A stretch of DNA of 64,000 nucleotides from a phage: assembly GCA_028909515.1 (NCBI GenBank), contig GCA_028909515.1_4811.1; one strand, 5' to 3'. How positions within the stretch are numbered: position 1 is the stretch's first letter; each line of letters starts with the position of its first letter. This document shows, piece after piece, positions 20,045-34,120 of the stretch. The notes under the pieces were generated by a model, which was given only the letters and a program-made list of their open reading frames with translations, did not search any database and had not been told where the DNA came from. A program made the translations under genes and the position numbers.

Positions 20045-22420
20045 TCAACCTTGCTTCGGTGAATTAGTAGGATTATTGAGTGCTCCATATGCTTGAGAGC
20101 AATCACCCTTCAACCACTCCTTGAATGAGTTTACATCCAATTCGTGAATTGAGTCGAAGCCGTTCCAACCGTTACCAAATGATGCTTGATAAGCTTCTTT
20201 CGCTTCTTCTGCTGAATCAAATCCAAGCATACACTTGTGTTCATCAAATTCGCCAGAATAATTATCATTTTGGTTAATGATGAATACTTTAGGCGACTTC
20301 ATATTTGGCCCAACAAAGCAGTCGACTTCATCACCATCAGCACCCTTGGTGCCTTTGATGAATCCGTAGTGGTGCGGCATCTTAACTGCCCATTCACCAT
20401 CAAGGCTGTTTCCCCTACGAATGCTGTTGCGAGGATTCTCAATACCAAGAATCATCCCGTGCAACTTCATCTTAGGTAGCGATGCGGCATCCATCTTCCC
20501 TACGTTGTGTCGCAAGTTGACGACATTTCCTTTTACGCTTGGAAGCGTGGACGGTTGCACCGACCTTGCATCTTTTTGAGGGTCAAAATCCACATCCTGA
20601 CCTTCTTTAAGGTAATAGTCAGCAATACCCTCCAGACCTTCTTTCAGTTGCGTTAGGACATCAACGTGATGGCTTGATTCATCATCGGTATCATCCATGT
20701 TAATCTCAACTGGTGCTCTGTCAGGGTTTTCTGCCAACTCACCACGCGCGGCACCTTCCGGCATAATACCAGTTTCGCTGTAGAACTGGCCGCCCATCTT
20801 GACAACGTCAGCCTTAGCCTGTTCAATATCGGCCTTGCCTTGCAGAACTTCACCAGCAGACTTGCCAAGCAACGCCATATTCTCTGGAGACATCCCTGGG
20901 GTTTCTTCTGCCGCGTCTTCCGGCAAACGGTTGTAGCCACTGTTTTTGTCGTCCTTGATGCGGTCGCGCTCTTCATCAGGGGAGATGACGCCAGCATCAA
21001 TGAGAGTCTTGCCAGTGTTCGCTCGTTTGTCGTTAATCTCTGCAAGCTGAGTAGCAGTAAGTGAACCAACTGGCTCCCATGCCACTTTAACGTCGACTTC
21101 AACACCTTCAGATTTCAAAAGGATTTTATAGTGACGGTCAAGAATCTTCGTCAAATCGTGCTGCTGACAAGTTTCCAATTCTTCGTGATAGCTGACCATT
21201 TCGAACTCACCAGTGGCGTTAAAGCCTTTAGGTGAAGTCCCTAACAGTTTTGTCGACGGAACTTTTGCGATTGCGGCCACCAACTGGTACTGGTTCATGA
21301 TGATGCTGTCGAAGTCTGACAAGTTGATGTCAAACTGGTCCATCTCTTCTTTCTGACCAAGCACTTTTACCGCATAGTTGTCGCGGTACTTAATCCACAT
21401 CATCAAACGTTCGGCAAACGACCGCTCATTGGCAATCGCCTTGTCAACGTCGGTCCGCAGCGTGGTTGTACGCTTAGACATCGCCAGCAATGGCGCTTCG
21501 TTAGCGGTACGTTCAGCGGCATAGATACGTTCATAAATCTGCTGAGTCAGAGGAATGCCGCCGTATATATAAGTCGGCTTGAGAATATCAGCTGGCTCAT
21601 CGTTGCGCAAGATGATTAGGTGGCTGCGATGATAACGCTGTCCACTGATCACCCAGTATTCTGGATCATAGAAATGCTGTGACGCAGGGTCTGCAGTGTT
21701 TTCAGACGTCAAGAATGGCATCATCCAATAAGGGTCAACCTGAATGATTCCCTTATAAGACCCCTTTGTCACACCATCGATGTTAAAAGGTTTGCTATAA
21801 TATTCTGGGTCATCGCTGCGCACATCAAATATGATGACACGGATGCCAAAAATATTCTTGAATCGTTCGGCTTCAACTAAGTGCTCTTTGATGTTAAATT
21901 CTTTATCAATTTGCTTCAGGCGTTCGCTTGCCTGCACAGACAATTCTGATTCAGAGCTTGATTTTACTTCCCAACCTTTACGTACTGCATCGCGGCCTAC
22001 CATTGAGCAAGCCTTATTCACCAGCCAGTGCTGCGCGATAATTGCGCAAGCTTGATAGCCGATGAATGATTGTGACAAGTACCAGTTTTGCAACTGAATA
22101 GGGACTGTGTATGGATTCACCTGCCCTTCTGAACTGATGTTCTTCAAAGCATTATCCATAACTTTTTTGGATACGGTTGCTGAATCTACTGAGCGACCTT
22201 TGATGATTGCAACACCGTCTCCGTTGATATCAGGCTCATATAAAGGGAAGTCATCAACCGTTTTAAAGGTCGGTCGATTGCTTTCAGTCTTTTCCCAGCG
22301 TTGACCGCTGCCGCGCCTTTCAAGGCGTTCAAACGGTGCCAATGGGTCGCCTGGCGGCATCTCCGCTGGTTCGGCTTCTGGTTGCGTCTTCTCCCAGAGT
22401 TTTATGCCAAGAATTTTCAT
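20045..22420 (-). CDS. Portal protein with a pyrophosphatase-like C-terminal domain
   Basis: Large ORF between terminase and the MuF-like gene. ATG at 22420 with AGGTGG upstream (track gives a TTG at 22453). C-terminus contains HHYGFIKGTKGADGDEVDCFVGP. Confidence 0.6.
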   Translation of the reverse strand: MKILGIKLWEKTQPEAEPAEMPPGDPLAPFERLERRGSGQRWEKTESNRPTFKTVDDFPLYEPDINGDGVAIIKGRSVDSATVSKKVMDNALKNISSEGQVNPYTVPIQLQNWYLSQSFIGYQACAIIAQHWLVNKACSMVGRDAVRKGWEVKSSSESELSVQASERLKQIDKEFNIKEHLVEAERFKNIFGIRVIIFDVRSDDPEYYSKPFNIDGVTKGSYKGIIQVDPYWMMPFLTSENTADPASQHFYDPEYWVISGQRYHRSHLIILRNDEPADILKPTYIYGGIPLTQQIYERIYAAERTANEAPLLAMSKRTTTLRTDVDKAIANERSFAERLMMWIKYRDNYAVKVLGQKEEMDQFDINLSDFDSIIMNQYQLVAAIAKVPSTKLLGTSPKGFNATGEFEMVSYHEELETCQQHDLTKILDRHYKILLKSEGVEVDVKVAWEPVGSLTATQLAEINDKRANTGKTLIDAGVISPDEERDRIKDDKNSGYNRLPEDAAEETPGMSPENMALLGKSAGEVLQGKADIEQAKADVVKMGGQFYSETGIMPEGAARGELAENPDRAPVEINMDDTDDESSHHVDVLTQLKEGLEGIADYYLKEGQDVDFDPQKDARSVQPSTLPSVKGNVVNLRHNVGKMDAASLPKMKLHGMILGIENPRNSIRRGNSLDGEWAVKMPHHYGFIKGTKGADGDEVDCFVGPNMKSPKVFIINQNDNYSGEFDEHKCMLGFDSAEEAKEAYQASFGNGWNGFDSIHELDVNSFKEWLKGDCSQAYGALNNPTNSPKQG

Positions 22421-22582
22421 TGTTAACGCCACCTGACAGTGAAAGGGAATCAATCTATATTATAAATATTCATGTGTTTGTAAGCAAATGATATGTATAG
22501 TAATCATAAATAGTTCATAAAATATTTTGCTTTTGTATCATTTTGAGTTATATTTTAGTTAACCAAACGAAAGGAGATTGAA

Positions 22583-22999
22583 ATGAGCACAACAATTGTA
22601 TTTGTCGTCCTTCATCAAGGCGAAGTAGTAAACGTATGCGAATATGAAGAGCTGGCAAAAGCCACTGCTGCGCGATATGAAGGTGCCACAGTTGACCCTT
22701 GGATTTTGGATGCGCGAAACGTGTTGCAGGCGACCATGGATGAATGGCTTTTAGGTCGCAAGGTGTATCCGGTTGAAAACATCGAATCCATTCAAGGCGA
22801 AACGGTATACTTTGAAGATGAATGCGTTCGCGGCATTGGTAAATTTATGGGATTGTGCCCATCTTCATCCAAAAATAAATTTTATCGTATTCAAGTTGAA
22901 GAAAACGATATGTTTGACAAAGTAACGCGCTCGATTGTTCCTGGCGGCGGCACTCCAATCTTTATGGCAGAATCAGACATCAAGGGGATTATCAAATGA
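22583..22999 (+). CDS. Hypothetical protein (moron in the late module)
   Basis: 138 aa. Strong AAAGGAGA site 6 nt before the ATG. Opposite strand to the flanking portal and terminase genes. Confidence 0.5.
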   Translation: MSTTIVFVVLHQGEVVNVCEYEELAKATAARYEGATVDPWILDARNVLQATMDEWLLGRKVYPVENIESIQGETVYFEDECVRGIGKFMGLCPSSSKNKFYRIQVEENDMFDKVTRSIVPGGGTPIFMAESDIKGIIK

Positions 23000-23235
23000 G
23001 AACGTTAACCGAACTCGATGTTTTGAAAGACGTTGCAGCCGCGCTAGGCGTAGAAGTATCCGAAAAGGCGACACTAGGTGCTTTGCGTCGGGATTTACTC
23101 GAAGCCGTTGACCGCAACGATTTTGACCGTAAGTGTATGCAAAAGAAGATTCGTCAGGCGGTAAGAGCGGGTAAGCGATTCCGTGCCAGGTCATTTGCTG
23201 CAAGAAAACTCGACCTTCAGCACGGAATGCTTTGA
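22996..23235 (+). CDS. Hypothetical small basic protein (moron)
   Basis: 79 aa, Arg/Lys-rich, start overlaps the stop of the 22583 gene. Confidence 0.4.
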   Translation: MRTLTELDVLKDVAAALGVEVSEKATLGALRRDLLEAVDRNDFDRKCMQKKIRQAVRAGKRFRARSFAARKLDLQHGML

Positions 23236-24775: not shown

Positions 24776-24802
24776 GGCCAGATTTTTTCTGGCCATTTTT
24801 TT
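24776..24802 (+). terminator. Rho-independent terminator-like hairpin
   Basis: GGCCAG, 7 nt loop, CTGGCC, then ATTTTTTT. Lies in the divergent region between terminase and the plus-strand operon. Confidence 0.5.
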
Positions 24803-24822
24803 GATTAAAATTCACAAAAAGT

Positions 24823-24850
24823 TTGCCTTTCTGAAACTCTGCGTTATAAT
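24823..24850 (+). promoter_or_regulatory. Sigma70-like promoter for the plus-strand operon
   Basis: TTGCCT, 16 nt spacer, TATAAT, then GGAGGT site and ATG at 24877. Confidence 0.5.
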
Positions 24851-24876: not shown

Positions 24877-25092
24877 ATGAAACTCATCGACCGTGCCATC
24901 AAAGCCATAGATAACCATTCCACAGCTATTGCATTCGTAATGGGATTCTGTTTTACTGCTGCGTTTGGCGACGTTCACACATTCAAGTCTGTCATCTTGT
25001 GCTGGTCTATCTGGTCCCTCATTTCTCTGGTTTTGATTCTTCCGATGACGTGGCTTGTCCTTACTTGTCTGGAATCTCAAGGTGAAGACTGA
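24877..25092 (+). CDS. Small membrane protein, holin-like topology
   Basis: 71 aa with two hydrophobic segments and a charged C-terminus. GGAGGT site. Confidence 0.45.
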   Translation: MKLIDRAIKAIDNHSTAIAFVMGFCFTAAFGDVHTFKSVILCWSIWSLISLVLILPMTWLVLTCLESQGED

Positions 25093-25313
25093 TGAGACTA
25101 TCAATCAAAGAGCGGGCAAAACGGCCCAAAAGGAGTGAGTCAAAAGCTAAATACACGTGCATAGGCGGTCCATTCGACGGGCAGCCTATATGGCTTTCAA
25201 AATCTAATCCATCGACGGTTGAATTCAGCCTTCATGGAATGCGCGGCAGATACCTGCTAAACAGAGAAACAAGCGTCAGTACATTTGTGGAGTGGAAAGA
25301 AAATGGCAAGTGA
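25092..25313 (+). CDS. Hypothetical protein
   Basis: 73 aa basic ORF, start overlaps the upstream stop. Confidence 0.4.
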   Translation: MRLSIKERAKRPKRSESKAKYTCIGGPFDGQPIWLSKSNPSTVEFSLHGMRGRYLLNRETSVSTFVEWKENGK

Positions 25314-25536
25314 ATTAACTTTAAAAGTACCAAAAGAAGTGCTAGATAAGGCATATGCAGATTCTGTAAAAGAATTGGCCGTGGTGCTTGGGATTGAAAA
25401 TGAATTTAACGTTCAATTGCAATTCCTTAAGGACACGCTTCAAATTAAAGAGAATAGAGAAGTTGGAAGCGGTGCGCCTTTAGCTCTGGCAATCCTCTAT
25501 GCGGGTCTGATTTTGCAATCTGGAGATGAACTGTGA
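25303..25536 (+). CDS. Hypothetical protein with hydrophobic C-terminus
   Basis: Internal ATG (MASELTLKV) chosen over the track start at 25285. Confidence 0.35.
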   Translation: MASELTLKVPKEVLDKAYADSVKELAVVLGIENEFNVQLQFLKDTLQIKENREVGSGAPLALAILYAGLILQSGDEL

Positions 25537-25731
25537 ATCGTTGGTGTAGTTGGAAGCTGAAACGACTCGCCTGGGCCAATGCCGCCAATTCTGCTGGGGT
25601 TATCACCGCTGGCGTTGGTTCGGTATGGGATGGCGAAGGCCGTTGGGATTCGCTGTGTGGCACGCGCCTATTCTTTCGCGTAAAATAATTATCACCCTTC
25701 CCGATATGGGAAGGGAATTAAAGAGGTTATC

Positions 25732-26073
25732 ATGAACAACACTTTATCACAACTGTTAATCTGGACTATCGCCGCTATCATCGGCACCGTTATTATGATG
25801 TCAAGTGCAAAGGCTGAAACGGATATTTGCGGCAGACTGATTTCTGAAAACGGCGAAATTTATTATGGCAACTCAAAAGGTGATTACATATCACCTGAAG
25901 TTTGCGCTCAGAAGAAAGCAGAGCTGCAAAAGCAGTATCATGAAGATCAATCTATATCTCAAGCCACGCTGATTGAATTAAGTATATCAGCCATCATCTT
26001 TCTAATCGTTTTTATGCTCATTATTAAACCAAATAATGGCAGCCATCGTCATATTCCTCTCAAAAGAAATTAA
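25732..26073 (+). CDS. Membrane or secreted protein
   Basis: 113 aa. Signal-peptide-like N-terminus and a C-terminal hydrophobic segment. Confidence 0.5.
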   Translation: MNNTLSQLLIWTIAAIIGTVIMMSSAKAETDICGRLISENGEIYYGNSKGDYISPEVCAQKKAELQKQYHEDQSISQATLIELSISAIIFLIVFMLIIKPNNGSHRHIPLKRN

Positions 26074-26111
26074 GGTTATAATACGGTTGTCGACAAAACG
26101 AGGACCGTAAA

Positions 26112-28499
26112 ATGCCAAGGCTAATATTCAAAAACAACTTTGAGGTCGCGCTTGCCCAGCCAACGACGACTTCAGACACCACCATCACAATTCGCTCAGG
26201 GTCGGGCTTTCCGACCTTGGGCGCAAACGAGCGTGTAGTGGCGACAATAGTCGACGCTGCGACAGGCCTCCAATTCGAAATCATCACAGTAACCGCCGTC
26301 GTCGGTGATGTCCTGACCGTTCAGCGTGCACAGGAAGGGACTGCAGCGCGTGCATGGGCTGCTGGTGATTTGCTTTCCATTCGAACTACTGCTGCATCTT
26401 TGACCAACACCGTCCGAAATTACGGCGCAATGCCATCAGGCATCAACTTGAATGCTCTTACAGGAAGTTGGTTTGGACAGTATTATCAGCCAGTAAGCTC
26501 AAATGCGCCAACAAACTTGAACTACCCAATAGCAGAGGCTGGCGTTTTACAAGTACTTCAAACTTCTGCAAATGGTTCAGAAAGCTGCATCCAAATATAT
26601 ACCACTTTTCAAAATAACATCACATTCCAAAGGACTTTTGTTGAATTATCAAGTTCATGGTCTAACTGGTCGAGAATAAGAAGGTTTACCGACATAGTAG
26701 GCATAGAGGCTGGCGGAACAGGTCAAACAACCATTCAGGGGATGAAGTCTGCTTTTGGATTCGGAACAGTCGCTGATCAAGACATCGTTCCAACTTCCAT
26801 GGGCGGCACAGGGTCAGCCGACAACGCGCAAGCATGGTTGAATATTCGCCCTCAAGGTTCAACGCCGCTTGCTGGCGACCCAGTGAATGATTATGATGCC
26901 GCGACCAAGCGTTGGGTAGAGAACTTGGTGAACACAGGCACCGTTGGCCCAAGCATGAACGGTGTAATGAACTATGGCGTCGGCGACTTCCACTTGCGTG
27001 ACAGTCGTGCATACATTCAACCATACGAAGTTGTTGCCGATGGGCAGTTGTTAAACCGCGCTGACTGGCCTGAGCTTTGGGCTTATGCGCAAATGCTTAC
27101 GCCTATTGCTGATGCCGACTGGCTTGCTGACCCACTTAAGCGCGGCAAGTATTCTTCAGGCAACGGCACAACAACATTCCGTGTACCAGACCGTAACGGT
27201 GTTCAGACAGGCAGCGTCAGAGCGCTATTTGCGCGCGGTGATGGCGGCAACTCGTCGAACGACGGAATGATCATGGAATCCTTCCTGCCAAACATCACTG
27301 GCAGCATCAACTTCCACGGGTCCGGCCCTGCAAGTGAACCAGGATCGGGAACGGTTGTCGCAAGTGCTGGCGGCGCATTCGTCAATGGAGAAGGATTCAC
27401 CATTCCGCGATATGTTAGAGGCGTTTCGCTTTTAAGTTCTGGTGCGAACTCTTTGGGAAGCGTTGCGCTAAGAGCTTCTAACTCAAGCCCAGCTTACGGT
27501 CGTAACAACCTTGCAACAGATGAAGTATTGCCGCGCAACTTTTCAGGCGTTTGGGTTATTCGTGCATCTGGTGGATTTGTTGCTGCTAAAACTTCTTGGG
27601 AGGTTGTGAACGGTGACTCAGTTCTTCCAGGCCCAGGTACCACTGTTGACGGCGGCGAAGTAAAATCAAAATATAATGTTGGAACGACTCTGCAAGCCCA
27701 ATTTAGTATGCGCGCACGCGCAGACGTTGGCGGGAACTATTATGGGCGTTTGAGCGTTTATAATGCTGCAAAAAGCGTCACCACTGTATATGATTTTGAC
27801 GATACTGGTGCTATCACGCTTCCTCAAAACGCGTCAATAAGATCAGGGTCGATGAAATTCGACTTTGCCCAATCCACAGGCGAAGTGTATTGCGCCACCT
27901 CAAGATTGCGCGTCGCCCCGTTATCAGGCGGCCAAACGATGGGTATTACATCGCTCGGCGGCGGAGGCTTGCCTGCTGAAAGTGCCTGGTTCGAGCACTG
28001 GGGCAATAGCACAAGCGGAGGTTCAGACAGAACGCGAGCGACAGTGGTTGAGTGCAAGGTTGGTGCTGATTACATGTGGTACTCGCAAAAGTTGACCACA
28101 GGAGCAAAAGAGTTGCGCGTCAACGGCGCTTGCATCGCAACGGCATTCACACAATCATCTGACAGAGACTTGAAAGAAAACATCCAAGTCATTCCAGATG
28201 CAACGGCAGCTTTGAGAAAGATGAGCGGCTATACATACACCTTAAAAGAGGATGGCATGCCGCATGCTGGTGTCATAGCGCAAGAAGCAATGGAAGCGAT
28301 TCCAGAGGCTGTCGGCTCTCAATATAAATATCCAGAAGGTGATGAAGAAGGACTAATCCCTGAAAGATATTACACCGTTGACTATTCTGCAGTCACAGGC
28401 CTTCTGGTTCAAGTTTGTCGTGAAGCTGATGAAAGAATAACGGCGCTTGAAGAGAGGATTGCGAATCTGGAAGCGTTAATAAAAAGTATGGCGAAATAA
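26112..28499 (+). CDS. Tail fiber/spike protein with C-terminal intramolecular chaperone (S74-like) domain
   Basis: 795 aa. C-terminal SDRDLKENIQ...GVIAQEAMEAIPEAV matches the self-cleaving chaperone domain of endosialidase-type fibers. Followed by a terminator. Confidence 0.75.
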   Translation: MPRLIFKNNFEVALAQPTTTSDTTITIRSGSGFPTLGANERVVATIVDAATGLQFEIITVTAVVGDVLTVQRAQEGTAARAWAAGDLLSIRTTAASLTNTVRNYGAMPSGINLNALTGSWFGQYYQPVSSNAPTNLNYPIAEAGVLQVLQTSANGSESCIQIYTTFQNNITFQRTFVELSSSWSNWSRIRRFTDIVGIEAGGTGQTTIQGMKSAFGFGTVADQDIVPTSMGGTGSADNAQAWLNIRPQGSTPLAGDPVNDYDAATKRWVENLVNTGTVGPSMNGVMNYGVGDFHLRDSRAYIQPYEVVADGQLLNRADWPELWAYAQMLTPIADADWLADPLKRGKYSSGNGTTTFRVPDRNGVQTGSVRALFARGDGGNSSNDGMIMESFLPNITGSINFHGSGPASEPGSGTVVASAGGAFVNGEGFTIPRYVRGVSLLSSGANSLGSVALRASNSSPAYGRNNLATDEVLPRNFSGVWVIRASGGFVAAKTSWEVVNGDSVLPGPGTTVDGGEVKSKYNVGTTLQAQFSMRARADVGGNYYGRLSVYNAAKSVTTVYDFDDTGAITLPQNASIRSGSMKFDFAQSTGEVYCATSRLRVAPLSGGQTMGITSLGGGGLPAESAWFEHWGNSTSGGSDRTRATVVECKVGADYMWYSQKLTTGAKELRVNGACIATAFTQSSDRDLKENIQVIPDATAALRKMSGYTYTLKEDGMPHAGVIAQEAMEAIPEAVGSQYKYPEGDEEGLIPERYYTVDYSAVTGLLVQVCREADERITALEERIANLEALIKSMAK

Positions 28500-28507
28500 T
28501 TCACTCA

Positions 28508-28532
28508 AGGCGCTGAAAAGCGCCTTTACTTT
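28508..28532 (+). terminator. Rho-independent terminator
   Basis: AGGCGCT, GAAA loop, AGCGCCT, then TTACTTT. Confidence 0.6.
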
Positions 28533-28580
28533 ATGCGCTATTAAGTTATACTCATTATACGTTAACAAGTGAGGTGTTTT

Positions 28581-28787
28581 ATGGAAATTAAAGTGTTGCC
28601 CGATTTTGTAAAAAGTATCGAAGCCAAAGGCATGACCATCAAGGCCAAAGGCAGTCTCGTTTGCATTGATAAAAAGCAAAGCGATCAAAGTATATCACTT
28701 GATGATATCAAGACTATGCAAAAACTCAACAAGAAAGGTGCTTTGCACGAGTTCTTAACGGATATTGGAGCAGTGGACAATGGATAA
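28581..28787 (+). CDS. Hypothetical protein
   Basis: ATG MEIKVLPDF with a GAGGTG site; track start is 28569. Confidence 0.4.
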   Translation: MEIKVLPDFVKSIEAKGMTIKAKGSLVCIDKKQSDQSISLDDIKTMQKLNKKGALHEFLTDIGAVDNG

Positions 28788-28881
28788 AGAGGCACGACGT
28801 TTTGCATTTTGGGGCACGGTTTGTGTTGTCGCCCTGTTTGGAATTGTTTACGCAATCATCCACGCTGCTGCAGCATGAATT

Positions 28882-29277
28882 ATGATCATTGATATTGAAA
28901 AGGCGCTTAAGCGCGAACTGACACCAGGTGCAACTCCTGGTGAAGAGGCTTATTACCGACCCAAGCCGCAACGCACCAATGATATTCCGGTCGCCAAGCG
29001 TACAGTGAATAAGAACGGCCAGCGGTCGCGACCACGCTCTATCCGGTCCGGTGAGAAGCTGAAAACGATTCGCCAATGTCTACAACGCCTCGAAATCATG
29101 GGTTGTCGCGCTTATATCGACCCTGATGGAAAGGTTTTGGTGAGAATTGGCAATAGTACACATCTGCAAGACGGATTGCCCTGCGGCGAATCCAGACCCA
29201 TAGCGAAGACCGACCGTGTGGCTACTGGCCGCGAAATTGAGGAAAGCTGGTTGGGTGCTTTCTTATTAAAATATTGA
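28882..29277 (+). CDS. Hypothetical protein
   Basis: 131 aa, basic, Pro/Arg-rich N-terminus. Confidence 0.4.
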   Translation: MIIDIEKALKRELTPGATPGEEAYYRPKPQRTNDIPVAKRTVNKNGQRSRPRSIRSGEKLKTIRQCLQRLEIMGCRAYIDPDGKVLVRIGNSTHLQDGLPCGESRPIAKTDRVATGREIEESWLGAFLLKY

Positions 29278-29284
29278 GGTTGAC

Positions 29285-29533
29285 ATGAATCAAAATGAAT
29301 CAGTAGCATTCTTACAATGGCTGGAAGGTGTGGTGGAGTATTACGCTCCAAAAGACCGCTTCATCTTTCAAGGAAAAAGTTACAAGCGCAAAGGGCAGGC
29401 CCAGAAAGCTGCGCGCAAGTACTGGAAAGAAGTTTATTCAGAATTTTTCTCTCAGATGGGAATCATCGGCGCAACGGTGTCCGGCGACCCTGCACAATTG
29501 GTATCGATTGATGAATCCAATCGTCACAATTAA
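29285..29533 (+). CDS. Hypothetical protein
   Basis: 82 aa ORF. Confidence 0.4.
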   Translation: MNQNESVAFLQWLEGVVEYYAPKDRFIFQGKSYKRKGQAQKAARKYWKEVYSEFFSQMGIIGATVSGDPAQLVSIDESNRHN

Positions 29534-29608
29534 TAAATCGATTTGAATGCCGCGCTATGCGGCTTTATTATAGTTATTGTTAATCACCCAAATATTAAAG
29601 GTAATGAT

Positions 29609-29989
29609 ATGTCAAATAAAAATGATTCTATGAGCCACACATATACTAAAGGCAGCGGCACCGCTTTTGGTTCAAGTATGAAAATTGACGCTCCATCTTG
29701 CTATTCTGATGGATTGGAAGTTGGCAACCGTGACTTGACATGGGTTTTACGTCGCCAATCCGATTTAGAAGAGAAGTTGGAAAATATTGAGCGTTCTCTT
29801 GAAAGTCTGCGCGACCAGCTTTTTGGTTGTTCTGGAGATGAGTCAAAACCTGTATCATATGCAGCCAATCGCGGTTTGATTGATAATATGCTTGCTATTA
29901 CCGCTCGATCAATTGGTAAAACTGTGTCCATTGAATCATTGATCAGCCAGATTGCGGATGGCTTTGGTGATGCCCATAAGAGTGAGTAG
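29609..29989 (+). CDS. Hypothetical protein
   Basis: Internal ATG (MSNKNDS) chosen over the track start at 29543. Confidence 0.4.
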   Translation: MSNKNDSMSHTYTKGSGTAFGSSMKIDAPSCYSDGLEVGNRDLTWVLRRQSDLEEKLENIERSLESLRDQLFGCSGDESKPVSYAANRGLIDNMLAITARSIGKTVSIESLISQIADGFGDAHKSE

Positions 29990-30009: not shown

Positions 30010-30038
30010 GTGAATCGTGGGTCGTGAATCTTGGGTCG
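30010..30038. repeat. Tandem direct repeat GTGAATC(G/T)TGGGTCG, two copies
   Basis: Read directly at the left edge of the island. Confidence 0.6.
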
Positions 30039-30253
30039 CTTAGTGCGGCCCTTTCTTTTGCCTGCCGTGCAGGAGTGTACTGCAAATTTACTGTGGGTAC
30101 AAAATAGTACGGTACTGTCTAGGATTTTTTCTTTGAAAAGTTAGTGGACCAAATGTGTCGTATTTTGATTAGTGTACTACAAATTTCATCAAGTACCAAA
30201 ACGCACCAAAAGACCCATGCCATAAAAACCACACGAACGCAATAATCAATCGC

Positions 30254-30338
30254 CGTTACAGTTTCCAGCGTTACAATTCGAAAGCGAATGATTCGAAGCA
30301 TAATAATATGAAGCATAATGATTCGAAAGCGAATGATT
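30254..30338. repeat. Nested direct repeats in non-coding DNA
   Basis: ATTCGAAAGCGAATGATT twice, GAAGCATAAT twice between them, CGTTACA twice just upstream. The 18-mer contains a 5 bp palindrome. Confidence 0.6.
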
Positions 30339-30463
30339 GCGTGTAGGATAATATCGGTGGGGATTATTCTAGATGCATGTAATTTCGCATGCGTACTATT
30401 TTCGGACGAAGGGTCGGCATATTCCTCGTTTTAGTTCGGAACGAAGGGAAAGTTTTGCGCCTT

Positions 30464-30537
30464 TATAAAACAACGACTTACGCGACCCTCCCTAACGGTC
30501 CGATATAGGTGTCTATATAAAACAACGACTTACGCGA
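30464..30537. repeat. Perfect 22 bp direct repeat TATAAAACAACGACTTACGCGA, two copies
   Basis: Copies at 30464-30485 and 30516-30537. Confidence 0.7.
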
Positions 30538-30662
30538 TGTTCTCCATTTAACGTAATACCCGTTATGCGAACTAAGGCGCATCTCGGCGAAGATTATGCG
30601 ACGACGAAGGGAAGGATAAAGGAGTTTTCGCGGAGAAGCGCATCGGGATAGGGACGAAGAAA

Positions 30663-30681
30663 AGCCGCGACTAAGCGCGGC
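30663..30681 (-). terminator. Weak terminator-like hairpin after small acidic gene A
   Basis: GCCGCG, 6 nt loop, CGCGGC, followed on the minus strand by TTTTCTTCG. Confidence 0.3.
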
Positions 30682-30701
30682 CTATTAGTAACGGAAGGGT
30701 A

Positions 30702-30992
30702 TTATAAGGAGACGATTTTAAAATAAGTTACTTCGCCGCCAAGTTGCGGGACCGCGATATATTCGCCGCCGATTTCGGTAATCGTATAGACGAAGCCGTT
30801 GATGGTTACGCGGTAGGATACTACGTCCTCGTCGCGATACTTGTAAAGGTCGAGGAAGTTGATCGGCTCATAAATAGACTCGATAGTCGCGTCTACGTTA
30901 GAGAGATAAACGCTCTCTAAGGTTTCGCCAAATACGTTAGAGTTTTCGGAAGTCTCGACGCGAGCGGAACGGATAGCGGATAAAGTAATCAT
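30702..30992 (-). CDS. Small acidic protein, paralog A of a three-member family
   Basis: 96 aa. AGGAG site. Blocks shared with B and C, for example SVYLSNVDATIE with EVYAANVDQTIE. Confidence 0.55.
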   Translation of the reverse strand: MITLSAIRSARVETSENSNVFGETLESVYLSNVDATIESIYEPINFLDLYKYRDEDVVSYRVTINGFVYTITEIGGEYIAVPQLGGEVTYFKIVSL

Positions 30993-31016
30993 AATATTCT
31001 CCTAGTTAGTCGGGAG

Positions 31017-31037
31017 GGTAGCGACCTATTCGCTACC
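31017..31037 (-). promoter_or_regulatory. Leader hairpin in the 5' UTR of gene A
   Basis: On the transcribed strand: GGTAGCG, loop AATAGGT, CGCTACC. Lies between the -10 element and the ribosome-binding site. Confidence 0.5.
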
Positions 31038-31058
31038 TCATCCCCTCTCGATATAAAC

Positions 31059-31088
31059 ATTATAGTCTTAGTGTACGAATAAGTAAAG
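31059..31088 (-). promoter_or_regulatory. Sigma70-like promoter of gene A
   Basis: Transcribed strand reads GTGCTTTACTT...TTCGTACACT...TATAAT then GTTTATATCGAGAGG. Shared with the promoters of B and C. Confidence 0.5.
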
Positions 31089-31097
31089 CACTTTTCG

Positions 31098-31399
31098 TTA
31101 TTCTGCGATAAAATATTTATAAGCTTTATCGCCTTCTATATCGAGATACTCGACGATAATTAACGCTTCGCCGCGCGGCGTAACGGTTTCGATGAGGGTT
31201 ACGGTTTCGTCGTCGGCCCGAATGAAGCGGATGGCGCTACGTTCGGCGTACTTAATCTCGTCGAAGGAAAGGCCGACGAAGGCGACCGCGCGGACTTTAA
31301 TTCCGCTCCACTCTAGTTCCGCGTTAACGGCTTTAAGAAGAGAAGCGACGGTTAAGCGGTCTTCGTCGTAAGTAAGAAGAGAAGAAATTAAAGTAGCCA
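31098..31399 (-). CDS. Small acidic protein, paralog C
   Basis: ATG MATLISSLL with a GGGAG site, chosen over the longer track ORF (31098-31457). Confidence 0.5.
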
Positions 31400-31457
31400 T
31401 AATAAAACTCCCGATGCTAGTAGAAGGAAGGGCCATCACCCGTCTCGATATAAACAA

Positions 31458-31485
31458 GTATACGCGAGTGTACGAAGAAGTAAAG
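31458..31485 (-). promoter_or_regulatory. Sigma70-like promoter of gene C
   Basis: Transcribed strand reads CTTTACTTCTTCGTACACT...TATACT then TGTTTATATCGAGACGG. Back to back with the promoter of B. Confidence 0.45.
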
Positions 31486-31528
31486 AAAAAAAGATAAAAT
31501 AATTTATCTCATTTTTATCGAAAAAGTG

Positions 31529-31557
31529 CTTTACTTTTTTCTACACTATATTATAAT
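31529..31557 (+). promoter_or_regulatory. Sigma70-like promoter of gene B
   Basis: GTGCTTTACTTTTTTCTACACT...TATAAT then GTACTCATATCGGGACGG. Confidence 0.5.
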
Positions 31558-31580
31558 GTACTCATATCGGGACGGGATGA

Positions 31581-31601
31581 GTTAACGAATAGGTCGTTAA
31601 C
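31581..31601 (+). promoter_or_regulatory. Leader hairpin in the 5' UTR of gene B
   Basis: GTTAACG, loop AATAGGT, CGTTAAC. Same loop as the gene A hairpin; two stem positions differ and both are compensated. Confidence 0.5.
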
Positions 31602-31625
31602 GCCTCTCCCAACTAGGAGTTTAAA

Positions 31626-31910
31626 ATGGCTATTCTTAACGTTTCTTCTATTCGCAACGCTATCGTCGAGAACTACGGCGTAAAACAAATTTTATCCGAA
31701 GTCTACGCCGCGAACGTAGACCAAACTATCGAGGCGGGTGGGGTAACGGTCGCCGAGGCTTTTAAACTTTACGCGGCGCTACCGGAATCGGACCGCGAAG
31801 CCTTCGAAGTAAACGTTAACGGATACTTCTTCGAAGCGGTCGAAATCGGTAACATCTTACTCGTTATGGGCGAAGAAGAATTTGAGACCTTCTCCCTCGT
31901 CGAAGCGTAA
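31626..31910 (+). CDS. Small acidic protein, paralog B
   Basis: 94 aa. AGGAG site. All 7 Leu codons are non-CTG and both Gln codons are CAA. Confidence 0.55.
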   Translation: MAILNVSSIRNAIVENYGVKQILSEVYAANVDQTIEAGGVTVAEAFKLYAALPESDREAFEVNVNGYFFEAVEIGNILLVMGEEEFETFSLVEA

Positions 31911-31990
31911 GAGAGGATTTTTAGAGCGTCGTGCGCGGCGCTTTAATAAAATTCTTTCGCGCCTAGCGCCCTAACAAATAGGAGTTTATT

Positions 31991-32617
31991 ATGGTTAGCT
32001 TAAATCGTTTCTCGACTAGCGGCGACGTTATCGCAACTAAGACCGCCGACCTCGTTGCATTTTATAATGCAAATTCCGGTTCGAAGCCGATTAAGAAATT
32101 TGCGGACCGCCGGACCGCCGAGACTCGCGTAATCGCGTTAATCGAGTCCTTAAACGCGCTCGATGAGCCGTCCAACGAATCGCCCATTCCCGACGCGAAG
32201 CCGCGCGAGGAAGTGTCCAGCGATGTAAAAACGCATAAGGCGCGCGCGGTCGTTAAAAAGGCCGAGCCGACCCAGGAAGAACTCGACGCGATGAGCGATG
32301 AAGAGTATGAAGCCTTCGTTAAGAGCGGCTTAAACGATAGTGCGAATTGCGTAGTGCAAAATGGAACTCCTTCCCATCGCCGTTCGAATAGCGAAGGTAT
32401 TGCAAAAAGTTGGGATAATAAGGAAGTGGCGCAAAAGCGTCTTACTCGTAACGGTGTTATGGTCGAGGGTGTAGGCGAGTTCAAATCGGTCCGCGTAGCG
32501 TTCGCCGCGCTGGGCTTACCGGATAGCAAGCATATTCGCTTCCGCATGAAGCTTAAAGAAGCTGGACGCTTAAACTTCGAGTTCGGCAACAAGTCCTACA
32601 CCTTCCAGATTATCTAA
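31991..32617 (+). CDS. Hypothetical protein with island-type codon usage
   Basis: 208 aa. AGGAG site. CpG-rich codons. Contains two copies of the ATAGTGC(A/G)AAT DNA motif in different reading frames. Confidence 0.5.
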   Translation: MVSLNRFSTSGDVIATKTADLVAFYNANSGSKPIKKFADRRTAETRVIALIESLNALDEPSNESPIPDAKPREEVSSDVKTHKARAVVKKAEPTQEELDAMSDEEYEAFVKSGLNDSANCVVQNGTPSHRRSNSEGIAKSWDNKEVAQKRLTRNGVMVEGVGEFKSVRVAFAALGLPDSKHIRFRMKLKEAGRLNFEFGNKSYTFQII

Positions 32618-33545
32618 TCGAATGGCGGCCCTTCGGGGTCGCTTTTCATAGTGCAAATTGGTGGATTATGAATACTCTTATTCTCATCGCTACGTTGTCC
32701 ATCGGAAGTGGTCGCACCTTATCCCTTTATGACCATAGTGCAAATTGCGCTTACCCTACGCGCGTTGCGGCGATAGTTAATAGTGCAAATAAGATGCTAT
32801 TCGAGACTTGCTGGCGGGTCGATAACGAGAAAGGTCGGGTAGTCTTAGGTTATAGTGCAAATCTGCTGGTGGAGTCGTTCGATTGGACGGCTGAAGGTCG
32901 TAAATTGTTACGTAAAGTGACTAAAAGATGACTTATAATAATACACTTTCTAACGCGTTTATGGTTGCAACCTTCCCCGTCGTATTACCGACGGCCCTAG
33001 AAGTGGAGAAAATGTGTTCTAGGGCCGTTTTATAGTGCAAATTGGCTAGTGGCGGGAGAATTGCTCGCCTTCTTTGGCCGCCTCTCCAAAATCCTTGTAG
33101 AAATCGTCCATAGAACGGCCCATTTTACTATTGCCGTTTTCATCAATCATCGTGATGCCGTAGATGATATTCAGTTCACGAATAGCATTAAGCTTGGCTG
33201 ACGCCGCGACTTCTGGATCACGCACAAGCTTGACCAAATTGTGAATTGCACCTTTTACGCTCCACAAATCCTTGAGTGGCATCTCTTCCATACGCTTTTT
33301 GAAGCGCATTTTGTAGTATGGGTTGCGTTGCGCGCAAAGGATTCGCTGGCCAGTGTAGTTATCCGTTGCAACTTCCATTCCAAATACTAGTGCAAAAGCT
33401 GCGCGCATGTCATGGCCCTGAATAACAAGGTCAATGAACTCATCGAATAAAGCCTGATTGTGCTCTGCAAATCGCGGGTCTTCAAAGTCTTCAGGCATCG
33501 CTACATAATCTTGACTCATAGTGCAAAATCCCATAGTGCAAATTA
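32336..33545 (+). repeat. Same-orientation array of an 11 bp motif, ATAGTGCAAAT, at least 8 copies
   Basis: Copies near 32336 (variant), 32351 (variant), 32648, 32735, 32780, 32852, 33032, 33518 (variant) and 33534. Present in coding and non-coding DNA and in different frames. Confidence 0.6.
33046..33534 (-). CDS. Hypothetical early protein
   Basis: 162 aa. The start region overlaps two copies of the 11 bp motif; an alternative ATG lies at 33519. Confidence 0.45.
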   Translation of the reverse strand: MGFCTMSQDYVAMPEDFEDPRFAEHNQALFDEFIDLVIQGHDMRAAFALVFGMEVATDNYTGQRILCAQRNPYYKMRFKKRMEEMPLKDLWSVKGAIHNLVKLVRDPEVAASAKLNAIRELNIIYGITMIDENGNSKMGRSMDDFYKDFGEAAKEGEQFSRH

Positions 33546-33744
33546 ATAGTGTGAATTATACAATGGATGGACATTATATTCAAGTGCAGATTGATGTTCA
33601 TTATGGCTATAAACGTACACAAATCATAGTGCTGATAGAGTTGCGGACCGTGGTGCGTGGTGTACTGTTTGATACGTATAAAAGAAATCCATCCCTTTCG
33701 CCGCTTGCTATGCAAATCAATGACTTAGCCGCTGCTGGCTGGTT

Positions 33745-34120
33745 GAAGCGTATCATGACGTATCATCCGTATTGCCGCAAGTCTTTGTTTTTACTTATAT
33801 CTTACGGATGATACGTATAAATATAAGTTTAGTATAAGTATGAGGATGTAGAAAAAAATTAATTTAAATTAATTCAAAATGGAGTTAATTAATTTTCTGG
33901 AATTCTATATATATTATGTTTGCACCCGTATCATCCGTATCAGCGTATTTTTCCTTATAAATCAATAGCCCAATGATACGTCATGATACGTATGAATGAC
34001 TGCCTTCGCGGCAAAACAATCCCAGTGTATACCAACAATCCCAGGCGCGGCGCACCACAGGGCCACGGTACAATATCCTGTGAAGAGGTGACTCTCATTT
34101 CCTTATACGTATCATCATGG
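33745..34120. repeat. Iteron-like locus 2: GATACG-type repeats in both orientations around an AT-rich core
   Basis: GTATCATCCGTAT, ACGGATGATACG and GATACGTCATGATACG flank an AT-rich stretch at 33840-33920. Homologous to the locus at 17789-18090. Confidence 0.55.

What the first reader, a model, noticed from the sequence alone, without database searches (positions are those of the whole stretch)
24877..29989. Tail fiber with S74-type chaperone encoded in a separate opposite-strand operon with small membrane proteins
The 795 aa fiber is on the plus strand, outside the minus-strand structural module, in an operon with a sigma70-like promoter that starts with several small membrane or secreted proteins. 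The arrangement looks like an exchangeable host-range cassette; the membrane proteins could be holin-like or superinfection-exclusion factors.
Basis: partly seen in the sequence, partly recalled or inferred. Interest (0 to 1): 0.45.

Follow-up and report, generated by a model that had tools for sequence, protein, structure and literature searches.

The report
Known Wifcevirus tail fibre, new tip
This is the variable side tail fibre gene of an E. coli phage of the genus Wifcevirus, already described in the literature; it carries a receptor-binding tip not seen before, and the small membrane-protein genes upstream are conserved genus genes that are not swapped with it.

Summary
A 795-aa fibre gene (26112-28499, +) with a C-terminal Peptidase_S74 chaperone (Ser683/Lys688) lies divergent from the terminase gene, behind five small genes and a conserved sigma70-like promoter.

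The window is a Wifcevirus. Its structural module is 96-97% identical to Bas101, Eco4M-7n and SP13. Humolli et al. 2025 described this fibre as the genus's 'T-shaped' dual-receptor-binding fibre with a conserved N-terminal anchor and swapped binding domains.

The 'exchangeable cassette' idea is only partly right. Exchange happens inside the fibre gene: four modules assort independently between conserved linkers. The five upstream genes are 74-100% identical in 12 relatives whatever the fibre allele, are under strong purifying selection (pN/pS 0.03-0.11), and orf1 and orf5 occur only in Wifcevirus.

The range given spans two transcription units. What is new is the distal 275 aa (second binding domain plus chaperone): at most 45% identical over most of its length to anything among 5.8 billion proteins.

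The function of the membrane proteins remains open. No holin is annotated in the ManiWeber (Bas99) reference genome, but nothing beyond topology links these genes to lysis or exclusion. This is an ordinary new member of a known kind.

The parts
24822..24850 (+). Promoter-like element of transcription unit 1 (TTTGCC-N17-TATAAT)
   Evidence: Invariant in 13 genomes, including those with a different upstream context. The motif family occurs 11 times against 0.28 expected. Activity was not measured.
24877..25092 (+). orf1, 71 aa, two hydrophobic segments (about 15-33 and 36-67), acidic C-terminus
   Evidence: pN/pS 0.03. 96-100% identical in the 12 relatives compared and in the 29 Wifcevirus records of the phage collection, with no match elsewhere in it. 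One 76%-identical variant occurs on metagenome Wifcevirus contigs.
25092..25313 (+). orf2, 73 aa, basic and soluble; its start overlaps the orf1 stop (ATGA)
   Evidence: phrog_12090 E=4.5e-27, function unknown. Distant homologues (about 33% identity) in Ralstonia phages, not next to their fibres.
25303..25536 (+). orf3, 77 aa, C-terminal hydrophobic segment (54-71); overlaps orf2 by 11 nt
   Evidence: pN/pS 0.11.
25533..25688 (+). orf4, 51 aa, GTG start overlapping the orf3 stop; basic and Trp-rich
   Evidence: pN/pS 0.05. Annotated in most relatives.
25695..25715 (+). Conserved stem-loop between orf4 and orf5 (CCCTTCCC-loop-GGGAAGGG), with no T tract
   Evidence: Stems are invariant and loops vary in 16 genomes. 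-15.5 kcal/mol, z=-2.8. Role unknown.
25732..26073 (+). orf5, 113 aa: N-terminal signal-like segment, about 50-aa two-Cys middle domain, C-terminal membrane segment, basic tail
   Evidence: Phobius note in the Eco4M-7 record. 95-98% identical in 29 Wifcevirus records only. No credible homologue outside Wifcevirus among 1.84 billion representatives.
26077..26082 (+). Invariant TATAAT 30 nt upstream of the fibre start, with no good -35 (possible internal promoter)
   Evidence: The 38-nt intergenic stretch is identical in 13 genomes except at one position.
26112..26471 (+). Fibre aa 1-120: conserved N-terminal baseplate anchor
   Evidence: 89-96% identical to relatives. Matches the N-terminus of the tail fibre in PDB 8jov, E=2e-16 with the profile. 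The same adaptor occurs in Ralstonia, Burkholderia, Klebsiella and Yersinia phage fibres.
26472..26711 (+). Fibre aa 121-200: variable knob-like module
   Evidence: 36-49% identical to relatives. Similar to R1/R2 pyocin fibre knobs (6ct8, 6cl6), E about 1e-8 with the profile.
26712..27191 (+). Fibre aa 201-360: conserved shaft and base of the first receptor-binding domain
   Evidence: 93-98% identical to relatives. Part of the 219-570 match to DT57C LtfA, E=1e-129.
27192..27671 (+). Fibre aa 361-520: head of the first receptor-binding domain (SP13/kaset allele), ending in a conserved linker at about aa 481-520
   Evidence: 88-90% identical to SP13 and kaset, 40-49% to the other ten. The linker bin 481-520 is 58-72% identical to all.
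27672..28157 (+). Fibre aa 521-682: second, distal receptor-binding domain; allele not seen elsewhere
   Evidence: 11-23% identical to 12 relatives. For the aa 500-795 query that includes this domain, the best matches covering nearly all of it are 42-45% identical. aa 566-676 resemble the T4 gp34 C-terminal region (phmmer E=2e-5; Foldseek probability 1.0 but TM 0.24).
28158..28499 (+). Fibre aa 683-795: Peptidase_S74 intramolecular chaperone with the Ser683/Lys688 dyad, plus the stop codon
   Evidence: 22-30% identical to the chaperone domains of relatives. The last codons, the stop and the downstream sequence are conserved.
28507..28526 (+). Terminator-like hairpin ending transcription unit 1
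   Evidence: -13.6 kcal/mol. Stem invariant, loop variable. Annotated as a terminator in WFC.
28525..28552 (+). Promoter-like element of transcription unit 2 (TTTACT-16-TATACT)
28581..28787 (+). orf7, 68 aa, in a variable gene slot just after the fibre
   Evidence: Present in only 4 of 12 relatives. Start inferred. The ECML-117 orthologue (PI34_gp23, assignment inferred from gene order and mass) was weakly detected by mass spectrometry.
28780..28878 (+). orf7b, 32 aa, single membrane segment
   Evidence: Annotated as a 99-nt gene in relatives.
28882..29277 (+). orf8, 131 aa, basic and soluble
   Evidence: pN/pS 0.07.
29285..29533 (+). orf9, 82 aa
29609..29989 (+). orf10, 126 aa (381-nt gene in relatives)
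30033..30051 (+). Terminator-like hairpin with T tract ending transcription unit 2, about 160 nt before the position that corresponds to the inner end of the 3.7-kb terminal repeat of WFH
   Evidence: -14.0 kcal/mol. Terminal-repeat mapping; the repeat is reported in PMC6563267.

Best explanation
**What it is.** This is the genus-typical accessory tail-fibre locus of a Wifcevirus. That genus comprises E. coli myoviruses of about 68 kb, distantly related to Pseudomonas Pbunavirus.

**Layout.** Two sigma70-type transcription units on the plus strand fill the space between the terminase gene and the position of the 3.7-kb terminal repeat.
- Unit 1 runs from the promoter at 24822-24850 through four overlapping small genes (orf1-4), a conserved stem-loop and orf5 to the 795-aa fibre gene. 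It ends at the hairpin 28507-28526.
- Unit 2 starts at a promoter overlapping that hairpin. It carries five more small genes and ends at 30033-30051.

**The fibre (inferred to be a homotrimer).** Its parts, in order:
- a conserved N-terminal adaptor, which would attach it to the baseplate;
- a variable pyocin-knob-like module;
- a conserved shaft;
- a first receptor-binding domain related to DT57C LtfA (called Gp12-like in the literature);
- a second, distal binding domain;
- a C-terminal S74 intramolecular chaperone.

The chaperone would drive trimer folding and then cut itself off at Ser683, using Lys688. In characterised relatives the receptor is O-antigen.

**How host range changes.** Homologous recombination at conserved linkers exchanges the four variable modules independently. 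The linkers are aa 201-360, aa 481-520, and the last codons plus the terminator. The neighbouring genes are not exchanged.

**This phage.** It combines the SP13/kaset allele of the first binding head with a second binding domain and chaperone not found elsewhere.

**The small genes.** The five upstream genes are conserved genus genes whose function does not depend on fibre specificity. Most likely they act at the host membrane during infection, in lysis timing or exclusion. That step is a guess.

**Shown:** gene structure, domain homology, the Ser/Lys motif, module mosaicism, and conservation of the promoter and hairpins.

**Inferred:** trimer shape, cleavage, co-transcription, the receptor, and the role of the membrane proteins.
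For: - **Genus.**. The same gene order occurs in 12 isolates and 3 metagenome contigs.
- **Chaperone domain.** Pfam S74 at 53.5 bits. Ser683, Asp684 and Lys688 are invariant. The profile matches the S16 gp37 chaperone (E=1.8e-10) and the MYRF domain (E=1.7e-9).
- **Other fibre domains.** DT57C LtfA E=4e-168; 8jov N-terminus E=2e-16; pyocin knobs E about 1e-8.
- **Mosaicism.** Module-by-module identity matrices show independent assortment. Conserved sequence resumes at the last fibre codons.
- **Upstream genes.** 74-100% identical in relatives, pN/pS 0.03-0.11.
- **Regulatory elements.** The promoter is invariant and belongs to an 11-copy motif family. Hairpins.
- **Literature.**
  - PMC11990801 describes the T-shaped dual-binding-domain fibre with a conserved N-terminus and swapped binding domains. 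It also shows that Bas98-101 depend on O16 O-antigen.
  - PMC11074155 shows O157-antigen dependence of Eco4M-7.
  - PMC7048862 found the Eco4M-7 orthologue as the top-scoring protein by mass spectrometry (80% coverage).
Against: - **Cleavage is not shown.** In the Eco4M-7 mass-spectrometry table, six peptides C-terminal to the predicted cleavage Ser are present. IEVLEAEIAALK, for example, has 223 spectra. That preparation also held non-structural proteins, so the result is ambiguous.
- **The fold of the second binding domain is unresolved.** The AlphaFold monomer model is mediocre (pLDDT 68). Foldseek found only T4 gp34, at TM 0.24. It found neither the T5 fibre tip nor solved chaperone structures.
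- **The T shape could not be tested.** No multimer prediction was available.
- **Transcription is inferred.** Promoter activity, timing and co-transcription rest on sequence only. A conserved stem-loop and an invariant TATAAT lie inside unit 1.
- **The receptor-binding domain is not known.** No data show which of the two domains binds the receptor, or which receptor this phage uses.
Confidence: 0.82

Rival explanations
1. One reading: the whole plus-strand operon, membrane proteins included, is a mobile host-range cassette swapped as a unit, and the membrane proteins are functionally tied to fibre specificity.
For: The genes share one promoter and are tightly packed. The gene slot just downstream of the fibre is variable.
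Against: orf1-5 are 74-100% identical in 12 relatives whose fibres are only 53-72% identical to this one. The promoter and both flanks of the variable part are invariant. Variation starts inside the fibre at about aa 121 and ends at its last codons.
Confidence: 0.04
2. One or more of the small membrane proteins form the holin or antiholin that is missing from annotations of the genus, expressed with a late structural gene. orf1 is the best candidate; orf5 could be a partner.
For: - No holin is annotated in Bas99.
- The Bas99 endolysin has no N-terminal hydrophobic signal-anchor segment, so it should need a holin.
- Lysis genes are scattered: the endolysin lies at the end of the structural module and the spanins in the replication module.
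- Apart from the i-spanin, orf1 and orf5 are the clearest small membrane proteins in the 64 kb, with orf3 and orf7b as weaker ones.
- orf1 is 71 aa with two membrane segments, the size and topology of class II holins (established knowledge).
Against: - No hit to any holin family in Pfam, PHROGs or NCBIfam.
- The orf1 C-terminus is acidic rather than basic.
- It is not next to the endolysin or the spanins.
- A 70-aa protein with one weak hydrophobic segment lies beside the endolysin in Bas99, outside this window, and is an alternative candidate.
- None of the orf1, orf2, orf3 or orf5 orthologues was detected in the Eco4M-7 proteome.
Confidence: 0.25
3. The small membrane proteins are superinfection-exclusion or envelope-modifying factors, expressed from a host-RNA-polymerase promoter and unrelated to the fibre.
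For: orf5 has a membrane and periplasmic topology. The promoter is sigma70-like. The genes sit in a block of small genes typical of early or accessory regions, next to the terminal repeat. Lytic phages such as T4 (Imm, Sp) have small inner-membrane exclusion proteins (established knowledge).
Against: No homology to known exclusion or defence proteins. The same promoter type also precedes the portal and protease genes, so it says nothing about timing. PMC11990801 argues that modifying the receptor is unlikely to pay off for lytic phages that target O-antigen.
Confidence: 0.2
4. This fibre is an accessory adhesin. The conserved second fibre in the structural module is the protein that triggers irreversible adsorption.
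For: PMC11990801 reports a second, highly conserved fibre with a T4 gp37-like tip. It also reports that some Wifcevirus isolates lyse rough strains. T5 and DT57C lateral fibres, the closest relatives, are dispensable on rough hosts (PMC10713586).
Against: Bas98-101 depend completely on O16 O-antigen, and Eco4M-7 on O157 antigen (PMC11990801, PMC11074155). Within the region compared, only this fibre varies while the structural module is 96-97% identical. This rival is compatible with the best explanation and does not exclude it.
Confidence: 0.35
5. Fibre variation is generated within the genome, by an invertible segment or by a diversity-generating retroelement.
For: None found.
Against: No long inverted or direct repeats flank or lie within the fibre. 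The best are 25 nt at 76% and 21 nt at 76%. Alleles differ over whole domains at 11-49% identity, not at scattered adenine-templated sites.
Confidence: 0.01

Closest known systems
T-shaped dual-receptor-binding tail fibre of Wifcevirus (ManiWeber/Bas99 Gp114; Humolli et al. 2025, PMC11990801)
   Same: Same locus, gene order, promoter and terminator. The N-terminal anchor is 96% identical and aa 201-360 are 96% identical. The domain order is the same and it ends in an S74 chaperone.
   Different: The first binding head is 48% identical, the second binding domain 14% and the chaperone 22%. The second domain here resembles T4 gp34 by sequence, rather than being recognisably T5-like.
Lateral tail fibre protein LtfA of the T5-like phage DT57C (PDB 8hqz chain d; PMC10713586)
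   Same: Strong sequence homology over aa 219-570 (E=1e-129), and with the profile over 235-780 including the chaperone. DT57C infects strains with complex O antigens, and its lateral fibres are essential on O-antigen-producing hosts (PMC10713586).
   Different: LtfA is 1076 aa, on a siphovirus. It attaches through a different N-terminus and an LtfC ring, and it carries a second protein, LtfB, as a branch. Only its N-terminus is resolved in the structure.
Peptidase S74 intramolecular chaperone domains (K1F endosialidase, T5 pb1, S16 gp37, phi29-type neck appendage, MYRF)
   Same: Pfam match above threshold, the Ser-x4-Lys dyad, a C-terminal position, and a long C-terminal helix.
   Different: Self-cleavage is not demonstrated for any Wifcevirus fibre. 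Chaperone peptides were present in the Eco4M-7 preparation.
Tail fibre of PDB 8jov (439 aa, 18 copies in the entry) and related N-terminal adaptors in Ralstonia, Burkholderia and Klebsiella phage fibres
   Same: aa 3-98 align at E=2e-16 with the profile. The adaptor is widespread, at 35-50% identity.
   Different: The rest of those proteins is unrelated. I could not establish which phage 8jov comes from.

Membership tests
Peptidase S74 / intramolecular chaperone domain | Match to Pfam PF13884 above the gathering score | tested here: met
   53.5 bits against a cut-off of 22, E=3e-14, residues 683-734.
Peptidase S74 / intramolecular chaperone domain | Catalytic Ser and a Lys five residues downstream | tested here: met
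   Ser683 and Lys688. Both are invariant in 35 distant homologues and 14 Wifcevirus fibres. They align with SSDRRIK of S16 gp37.
Peptidase S74 / intramolecular chaperone domain | C-terminal position after a fibre or spike body, ending in a long helix | tested here: met
   It is the last 113 residues. The model has a helix at fragment residues 259-295, with block-mean pLDDT 77-92.
Peptidase S74 / intramolecular chaperone domain | Autoproteolytic release after trimer folding | not testable with these tools
   Published mass spectrometry of the Eco4M-7 orthologue shows chaperone peptides in an impure preparation, which is ambiguous.
Wifcevirus T-shaped dual-binding-domain fibre | Conserved locus between the terminase gene and the terminal repeat, with a conserved N-terminal anchor | tested here: met
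Wifcevirus T-shaped dual-binding-domain fibre | Gp12-like first receptor-binding domain | tested here: inconclusive
   Pfam Collar reaches only E=0.058, below its cut-off. T4 gp12 was not found by sequence or profile. However, aa 201-360 are 93-98% identical to fibres for which the paper reports this domain.
Wifcevirus T-shaped dual-binding-domain fibre | T5-like second binding domain and a T-shaped trimer | tested here: inconclusive
   The monomer model has pLDDT 68. Foldseek finds T4 gp34 only.
Holin (considered for orf1 and orf5) | Small protein with one or more membrane segments | tested here: met
   orf1 is 71 aa with two segments; orf5 is 113 aa with two segments.
Holin (considered for orf1 and orf5) | Homology to a described holin family | tested here: not met
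   No hit in Pfam, PHROGs or NCBIfam. There are no credible homologues outside Wifcevirus.
Holin (considered for orf1 and orf5) | Position next to an endolysin or spanin gene | tested here: not met
   The spanin gene is at 61741-62256. The endolysin gene lies beyond the window, at the far end of the structural module.
Holin (considered for orf1 and orf5) | Lethal membrane permeabilisation when expressed | not testable with these tools
   Needs an experiment.
Superinfection-exclusion or defence proteins | Homology to known exclusion or defence families | tested here: not met
   PADLOC gives only chance-level hits: KwaA at E=0.018 for orf1, and a type II restriction-enzyme model at E=7.5e-4 for orf7, which is not one of the membrane-protein candidates.
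Invertible-segment or diversity-generating-retroelement host-range switch | Flanking inverted repeats, or template/variable repeat pairs | tested here: not met
   Only short, imperfect repeats.

The most novel reading that the evidence does not exclude
The genus-restricted, strongly conserved membrane-protein cluster orf1-orf5 is the missing lysis-control system (holin with partners) of Wifcevirus. It would be co-transcribed with the fibre, and possibly connected to the unusually short latent periods reported for Eco4M-7 and ECML-117 (PMC7048862).
Probability: 0.2. Interest if true: 0.4.

Novelty: new member of a known kind. Interest (0 to 1): 0.22.

Why it matters
It matters modestly.

The locus confirms that Wifcevirus host range is set by a modular fibre. 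Its two binding domains and its chaperone recombine independently at defined conserved linkers. That gives exact junctions for engineering chimeric fibres: about aa 200, 360, 480-520, and the stop codon.

This phage adds a distal binding domain and chaperone with no close relative in very large databases, so its glycan target is unknown.

The small sample also hints at a division of labour. The four O16-dependent phages share the first binding head. The phages isolated on O157 share a family of second binding domains. This could be tested to assign specificity to each domain, a question the published work left open.

The conserved membrane-gene cluster is a defined set of candidates for the unannotated holin of the genus.

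Tried and rejected
- **Remote homology for orf1 and orf5.** I ran tblastn against 50,697 phage records, a word-indexed search of 5.8 billion proteins, and full HMMER against 1.84 billion representatives (orf5 only). Only Wifcevirus copies turned up. One 1276-aa hit at E=7e-5 over a short stretch I judged uninformative.
- **Family scans of all small ORFs.** Pfam, PHROGs, NCBIfam and PADLOC gave nothing usable. orf2 hits an unknown-function PHROG.
- **Structure of fibre aa 500-795.** The monomer model has pLDDT 68. Foldseek against the PDB found only T4 gp34, with low TM. This neither confirms nor excludes a T5-like tip.
- **Shared anchor with the second fibre.** The fibre's N-terminus has no significant similarity to Bas99_0030 or Bas99_0031.
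- **Repeats, invertible segments, retroelement-style repeats.** None found.
- **Source of PDB 8jov.** Not found in the literature library.
- **Published proteomics as a test of chaperone cleavage.** Chaperone peptides are present, but the preparation was impure, so the result is undecided.
- **Early versus late promoter classes.** The same motif precedes structural, replication and small-gene operons, so it gives no timing information.
- **Not used.** I left the second structure-prediction job unused. Only shallow or single-sequence input was allowed for the remaining targets.
Full report
**What the window is.** The region 24700-30000 matches 35 phage records at 80-95% nucleotide identity. Nearly all are Escherichia or Shigella phages of the genus Wifcevirus: WFC, WFH, FEC19, ECML-117, Eco4M-7, SP13, kaset and Bas98-101. 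None covers more than 75% of the query. The adjacent structural module (window 1-24700) is 96-97% identical over its full length to Bas101, Eco4M-7n and SP13. The window is therefore a Wifcevirus genome with one locally divergent spot. Compared with the annotated ManiWeber/Bas99 genome, the window lacks roughly 5 kb. That missing stretch holds most of Bas99_0030, the tail protein Bas99_0031 and the endolysin.

**Checking the observation.**
- The 795-aa ORF at 26112-28499 (+) is real. It matches tail-fibre PHROGs (phrog_6921, E=1e-178) and Pfam Peptidase_S74 at residues 683-734, with 53.5 bits against a cut-off of 22.
- SDRDLK begins at Ser683, with Lys688 five residues on. Ser683, Asp684 and Lys688 are invariant in 35 distant homologues and in 14 Wifcevirus fibres. 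They align with the SSDRRIK motif of the S16 gp37 chaperone.
- The terminase and portal genes and the rest of the structural module are on the minus strand. The fibre is therefore divergent from the terminase gene.
- Upstream lie five small ORFs, all under strong purifying selection against 12 relatives (pN/pS 0.03-0.11). They are genes, not noise.
- Hydropathy shows membrane segments in three of them. orf1 has two. orf3 has one at its C-terminus. orf5 has an N-terminal signal-like segment and a C-terminal segment followed by a basic tail.
- orf2 and orf4 are basic and soluble. The authors of the Eco4M-7 record noted a signal peptide and a transmembrane domain for the orf5 orthologue.

**Transcription signals.** All of these are sequence inferences; no transcript data exist.
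- TTGCCT-16-TATAAT at 24823-24850 is identical in 13 genomes. That includes four genomes where an extra 231-nt gene replaces the sequence upstream of it.
- It belongs to a motif family, TTTRCY-N15-18-TATAMT. The family occurs 11 times in the window against 0.28 +/- 0.52 in Markov simulations. Almost every copy lies just upstream of a gene, including the portal and head-protease genes.
- The promoter is thus the phage's general host-polymerase type and does not indicate timing.
- orf1-4 overlap or abut (ATGA, an 11-nt overlap, GTGA).
- A stem-loop at 25695-25715 has invariant stems and variable loops in 16 genomes, and no T tract.
- An invariant TATAAT lies 30 nt before the fibre start, with a poor -35.
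- Directly after the fibre stop comes an invariant hairpin (28507-28526, -13.6 kcal/mol). It is annotated as a terminator in WFC. A second promoter of the same family overlaps it.
- The range given in the finding therefore spans two transcription units. The second ends at 30033-30051.

**Position in the genome.** WFC and WFH have a 3.7-kb terminal repeat (PMC6563267). The WFH repeat is 3701 nt and maps to window positions of about 30209-33942. The fibre block therefore fills the space between the terminase gene and the terminal repeat.

**Is it an exchangeable cassette?** Not as a unit.
- The five upstream proteins are 74-100% identical in 12 relatives whose fibres are only 53-72% identical to this one.
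- orf1 and orf5 occur in 29 Wifcevirus records and nowhere else in the phage collection. The large protein databases hold only Wifcevirus copies, apart from one uninformative short match for orf5.
- Three metagenome-derived relatives show the same gene order.
- Variation is inside the fibre:

| Fibre segment | Identity of this phage to the 12 relatives |
|---|---|
| aa 1-120, anchor | 89-96% |
| aa 121-200, knob-like module | 36-49% |
| aa 201-360, shaft | 93-98% |
| aa 361-520, first binding head | 88-90% to SP13 and kaset, 40-49% to the rest |
| aa 521-682, second binding domain | 11-23% |
| aa 683-795, chaperone | 22-30% |

- Among the relatives the modules assort independently. Bas99 shares its first binding head with FEC19 and Bas98/100/101 (86-90%). 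It shares its second domain with WFH and WFC (91-99%).
- A conserved linker at about aa 481-520 (58-72% identical to all) separates the two binding regions. Conserved nucleotide sequence resumes about 9 nt before the stop codon.
- This is the pattern expected from homologous recombination at conserved junctions. No inverted or template-type repeats exist.

**Fibre domain assignments.**
- Sequence and profile searches of the PDB give four matches:
  - aa 3-98 match the N-terminus of the 8jov tail fibre.
  - aa 105-192 match R1/R2 pyocin fibre knobs.
  - aa 219-570, or 235-780 with the profile, match DT57C LtfA (E=4e-168).
  - The C-terminus matches the S16 gp37 and MYRF S74-type domains.
- DT57C LtfA is the lateral fibre protein of a T5-like phage that infects strains with complex O antigens (PMC10713586).
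- The N-terminal adaptor is widespread in Ralstonia, Burkholderia, Klebsiella and Yersinia phage fibres. None of the listed hits is a Pbunavirus. It is unrelated to the other tail proteins of the genus.
- I infer that the fibre is an add-on acquired by the Wifcevirus lineage. That would explain its position outside the inherited structural module.
- aa 566-676 resemble the T4 gp34 C-terminal region. An AlphaFold monomer model of aa 500-795 reached only pLDDT 68. Foldseek returned gp34 alone, at low TM. The fold of the second binding domain is therefore unresolved.

**What is new here.** The distal 296 aa have no close relative. The best matches covering nearly all of the query are 42% identical in the phage collection. 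They are 44-45% identical among 5.8 billion proteins, mostly E. coli prophage fibres. Partial matches to the chaperone part reach 60-68%.

**Comparison with the literature.**
- Humolli et al. 2025 (PMC11990801) describe this fibre, using ManiWeber Gp114 as the example. They call it a T-shaped fibre with a Gp12-like first and a T5-like second binding domain plus a chaperone.
- They note that the N-terminus is conserved while the binding domains and chaperone vary and move horizontally. They also note a second, conserved fibre in the structural module.
- Bas98-101 depend on O16 O-antigen (PMC11990801). Eco4M-7 depends on O157 antigen (PMC11074155).
- The Eco4M-7 orthologue was the top-scoring protein by mass spectrometry (PMC7048862).
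- That table contains six peptides from the chaperone domain, up to 223 spectra each. The preparation also held helicase and endolysin. Cleavage is therefore neither shown nor excluded.
- The orthologues of orf1, orf2, orf3 and orf5 were not detected.
- The published work does not discuss the small upstream genes.

**A small extra observation.** In my 13-fibre sample, the four O16-dependent phages share the first binding head (86-99%) but carry two unrelated second domains. The phages isolated on O157 share a family of second domains (60-75% among FEC19, Eco4M-7 and ECML-117; EC150, host serotype unrecorded, is 98% to FEC19) but have dissimilar first heads. This hints that each domain has its own glycan specificity. 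It rests on host labels in the records and few genomes.

**The membrane proteins.**
- No homology links them to holins, exclusion proteins or defence systems.
- No holin is annotated in Bas99, and the endolysin has no signal-anchor segment. A holin must therefore exist somewhere.
- Within the window the clearest small membrane proteins besides the i-spanin are orf1 and orf5, with orf3 and orf7b as weaker ones.
- A 70-aa protein beside the endolysin in Bas99 is an alternative candidate.
- I put about 0.25 on a lysis role and about 0.2 on exclusion or envelope modification. The rest is unknown.

**Verdict.** However, it is an already described, genus-conserved feature. The cassette idea must be narrowed to intragenic module exchange. 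This phage is a new member of a known kind with an unseen distal binding module. Interest is low to moderate.

Noticed in passing
window, 11 sites: 17753-, 22488-, 24822+, 28525+, 31087-, 31484-, 31530+, 45972-, 47148+, 50854+, 63963+: A phage-wide promoter-like motif, TTTRCY-N15-18-TATAMT, occurs 11 times against 0.28 expected. Almost every copy lies just upstream of a gene, in structural, replication and small-gene regions alike.
   Followed up: partly
window 25695-25715: A stem-loop between orf4 and orf5 has invariant 8-bp GC-rich stems and freely varying loops in 16 genomes, and no T tract. It may be an RNA processing, stability or attenuation element inside the fibre transcription unit.
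   Followed up: partly
window 24776-24794: A plus-strand terminator-like hairpin with a T tract sits between the divergent terminase and orf1 promoters. In Eco4M-7, ECML-117, Bas100 and Bas101 a 231-nt gene replaces it. That gene's product was abundant in the Eco4M-7 proteome (gp32, 390 spectra).
   Followed up: partly
window 28581-28787 and the same slot in L001-L013: The gene slot directly after the fibre is variable. This phage has a 68-aa gene there, while most relatives have a 91-95-aa gene or both. The Eco4M-7 version (gp26) was detected with 65% coverage by mass spectrometry, so it may be associated with the virion or the fibre.
   Followed up: partly
window about 30052-30660 and 30209-33942: A noncoding stretch of about 600 bp lies between convergent terminators. 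It contains the position matching the inner end of the 3.7-kb direct terminal repeat of WFH. The window is thus a circularly joined assembly with the repeat collapsed (PMC6563267).
   Followed up: partly
window 20045-22453 (-); L014 5169-7544: In a relative, precomputed hits give the portal protein a Pfam PF18823 (InPase) domain in addition to Phage_portal_3.
   Followed up: no
window 22583-23235 (+): Two plus-strand genes (138 and 79 aa) sit between the minus-strand portal and terminase genes. They are conserved in all relatives examined.
   Followed up: no
L003 27875-29314 (Bas99; outside the window): The endolysin has no N-terminal hydrophobic segment. Next to it, on the opposite strand, lie a 70-aa protein with one weak hydrophobic stretch and a 180-aa protein with a signal peptide. 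No holin is annotated in this genome.
   Followed up: partly
window 25092-25313; hits H190-H203: orf2 has distant homologues (about 33% identity) in Ralstonia phages. Several of those phages also carry the fibre's N-terminal adaptor domain, but the two genes lie about 20 kb apart there.
   Followed up: no
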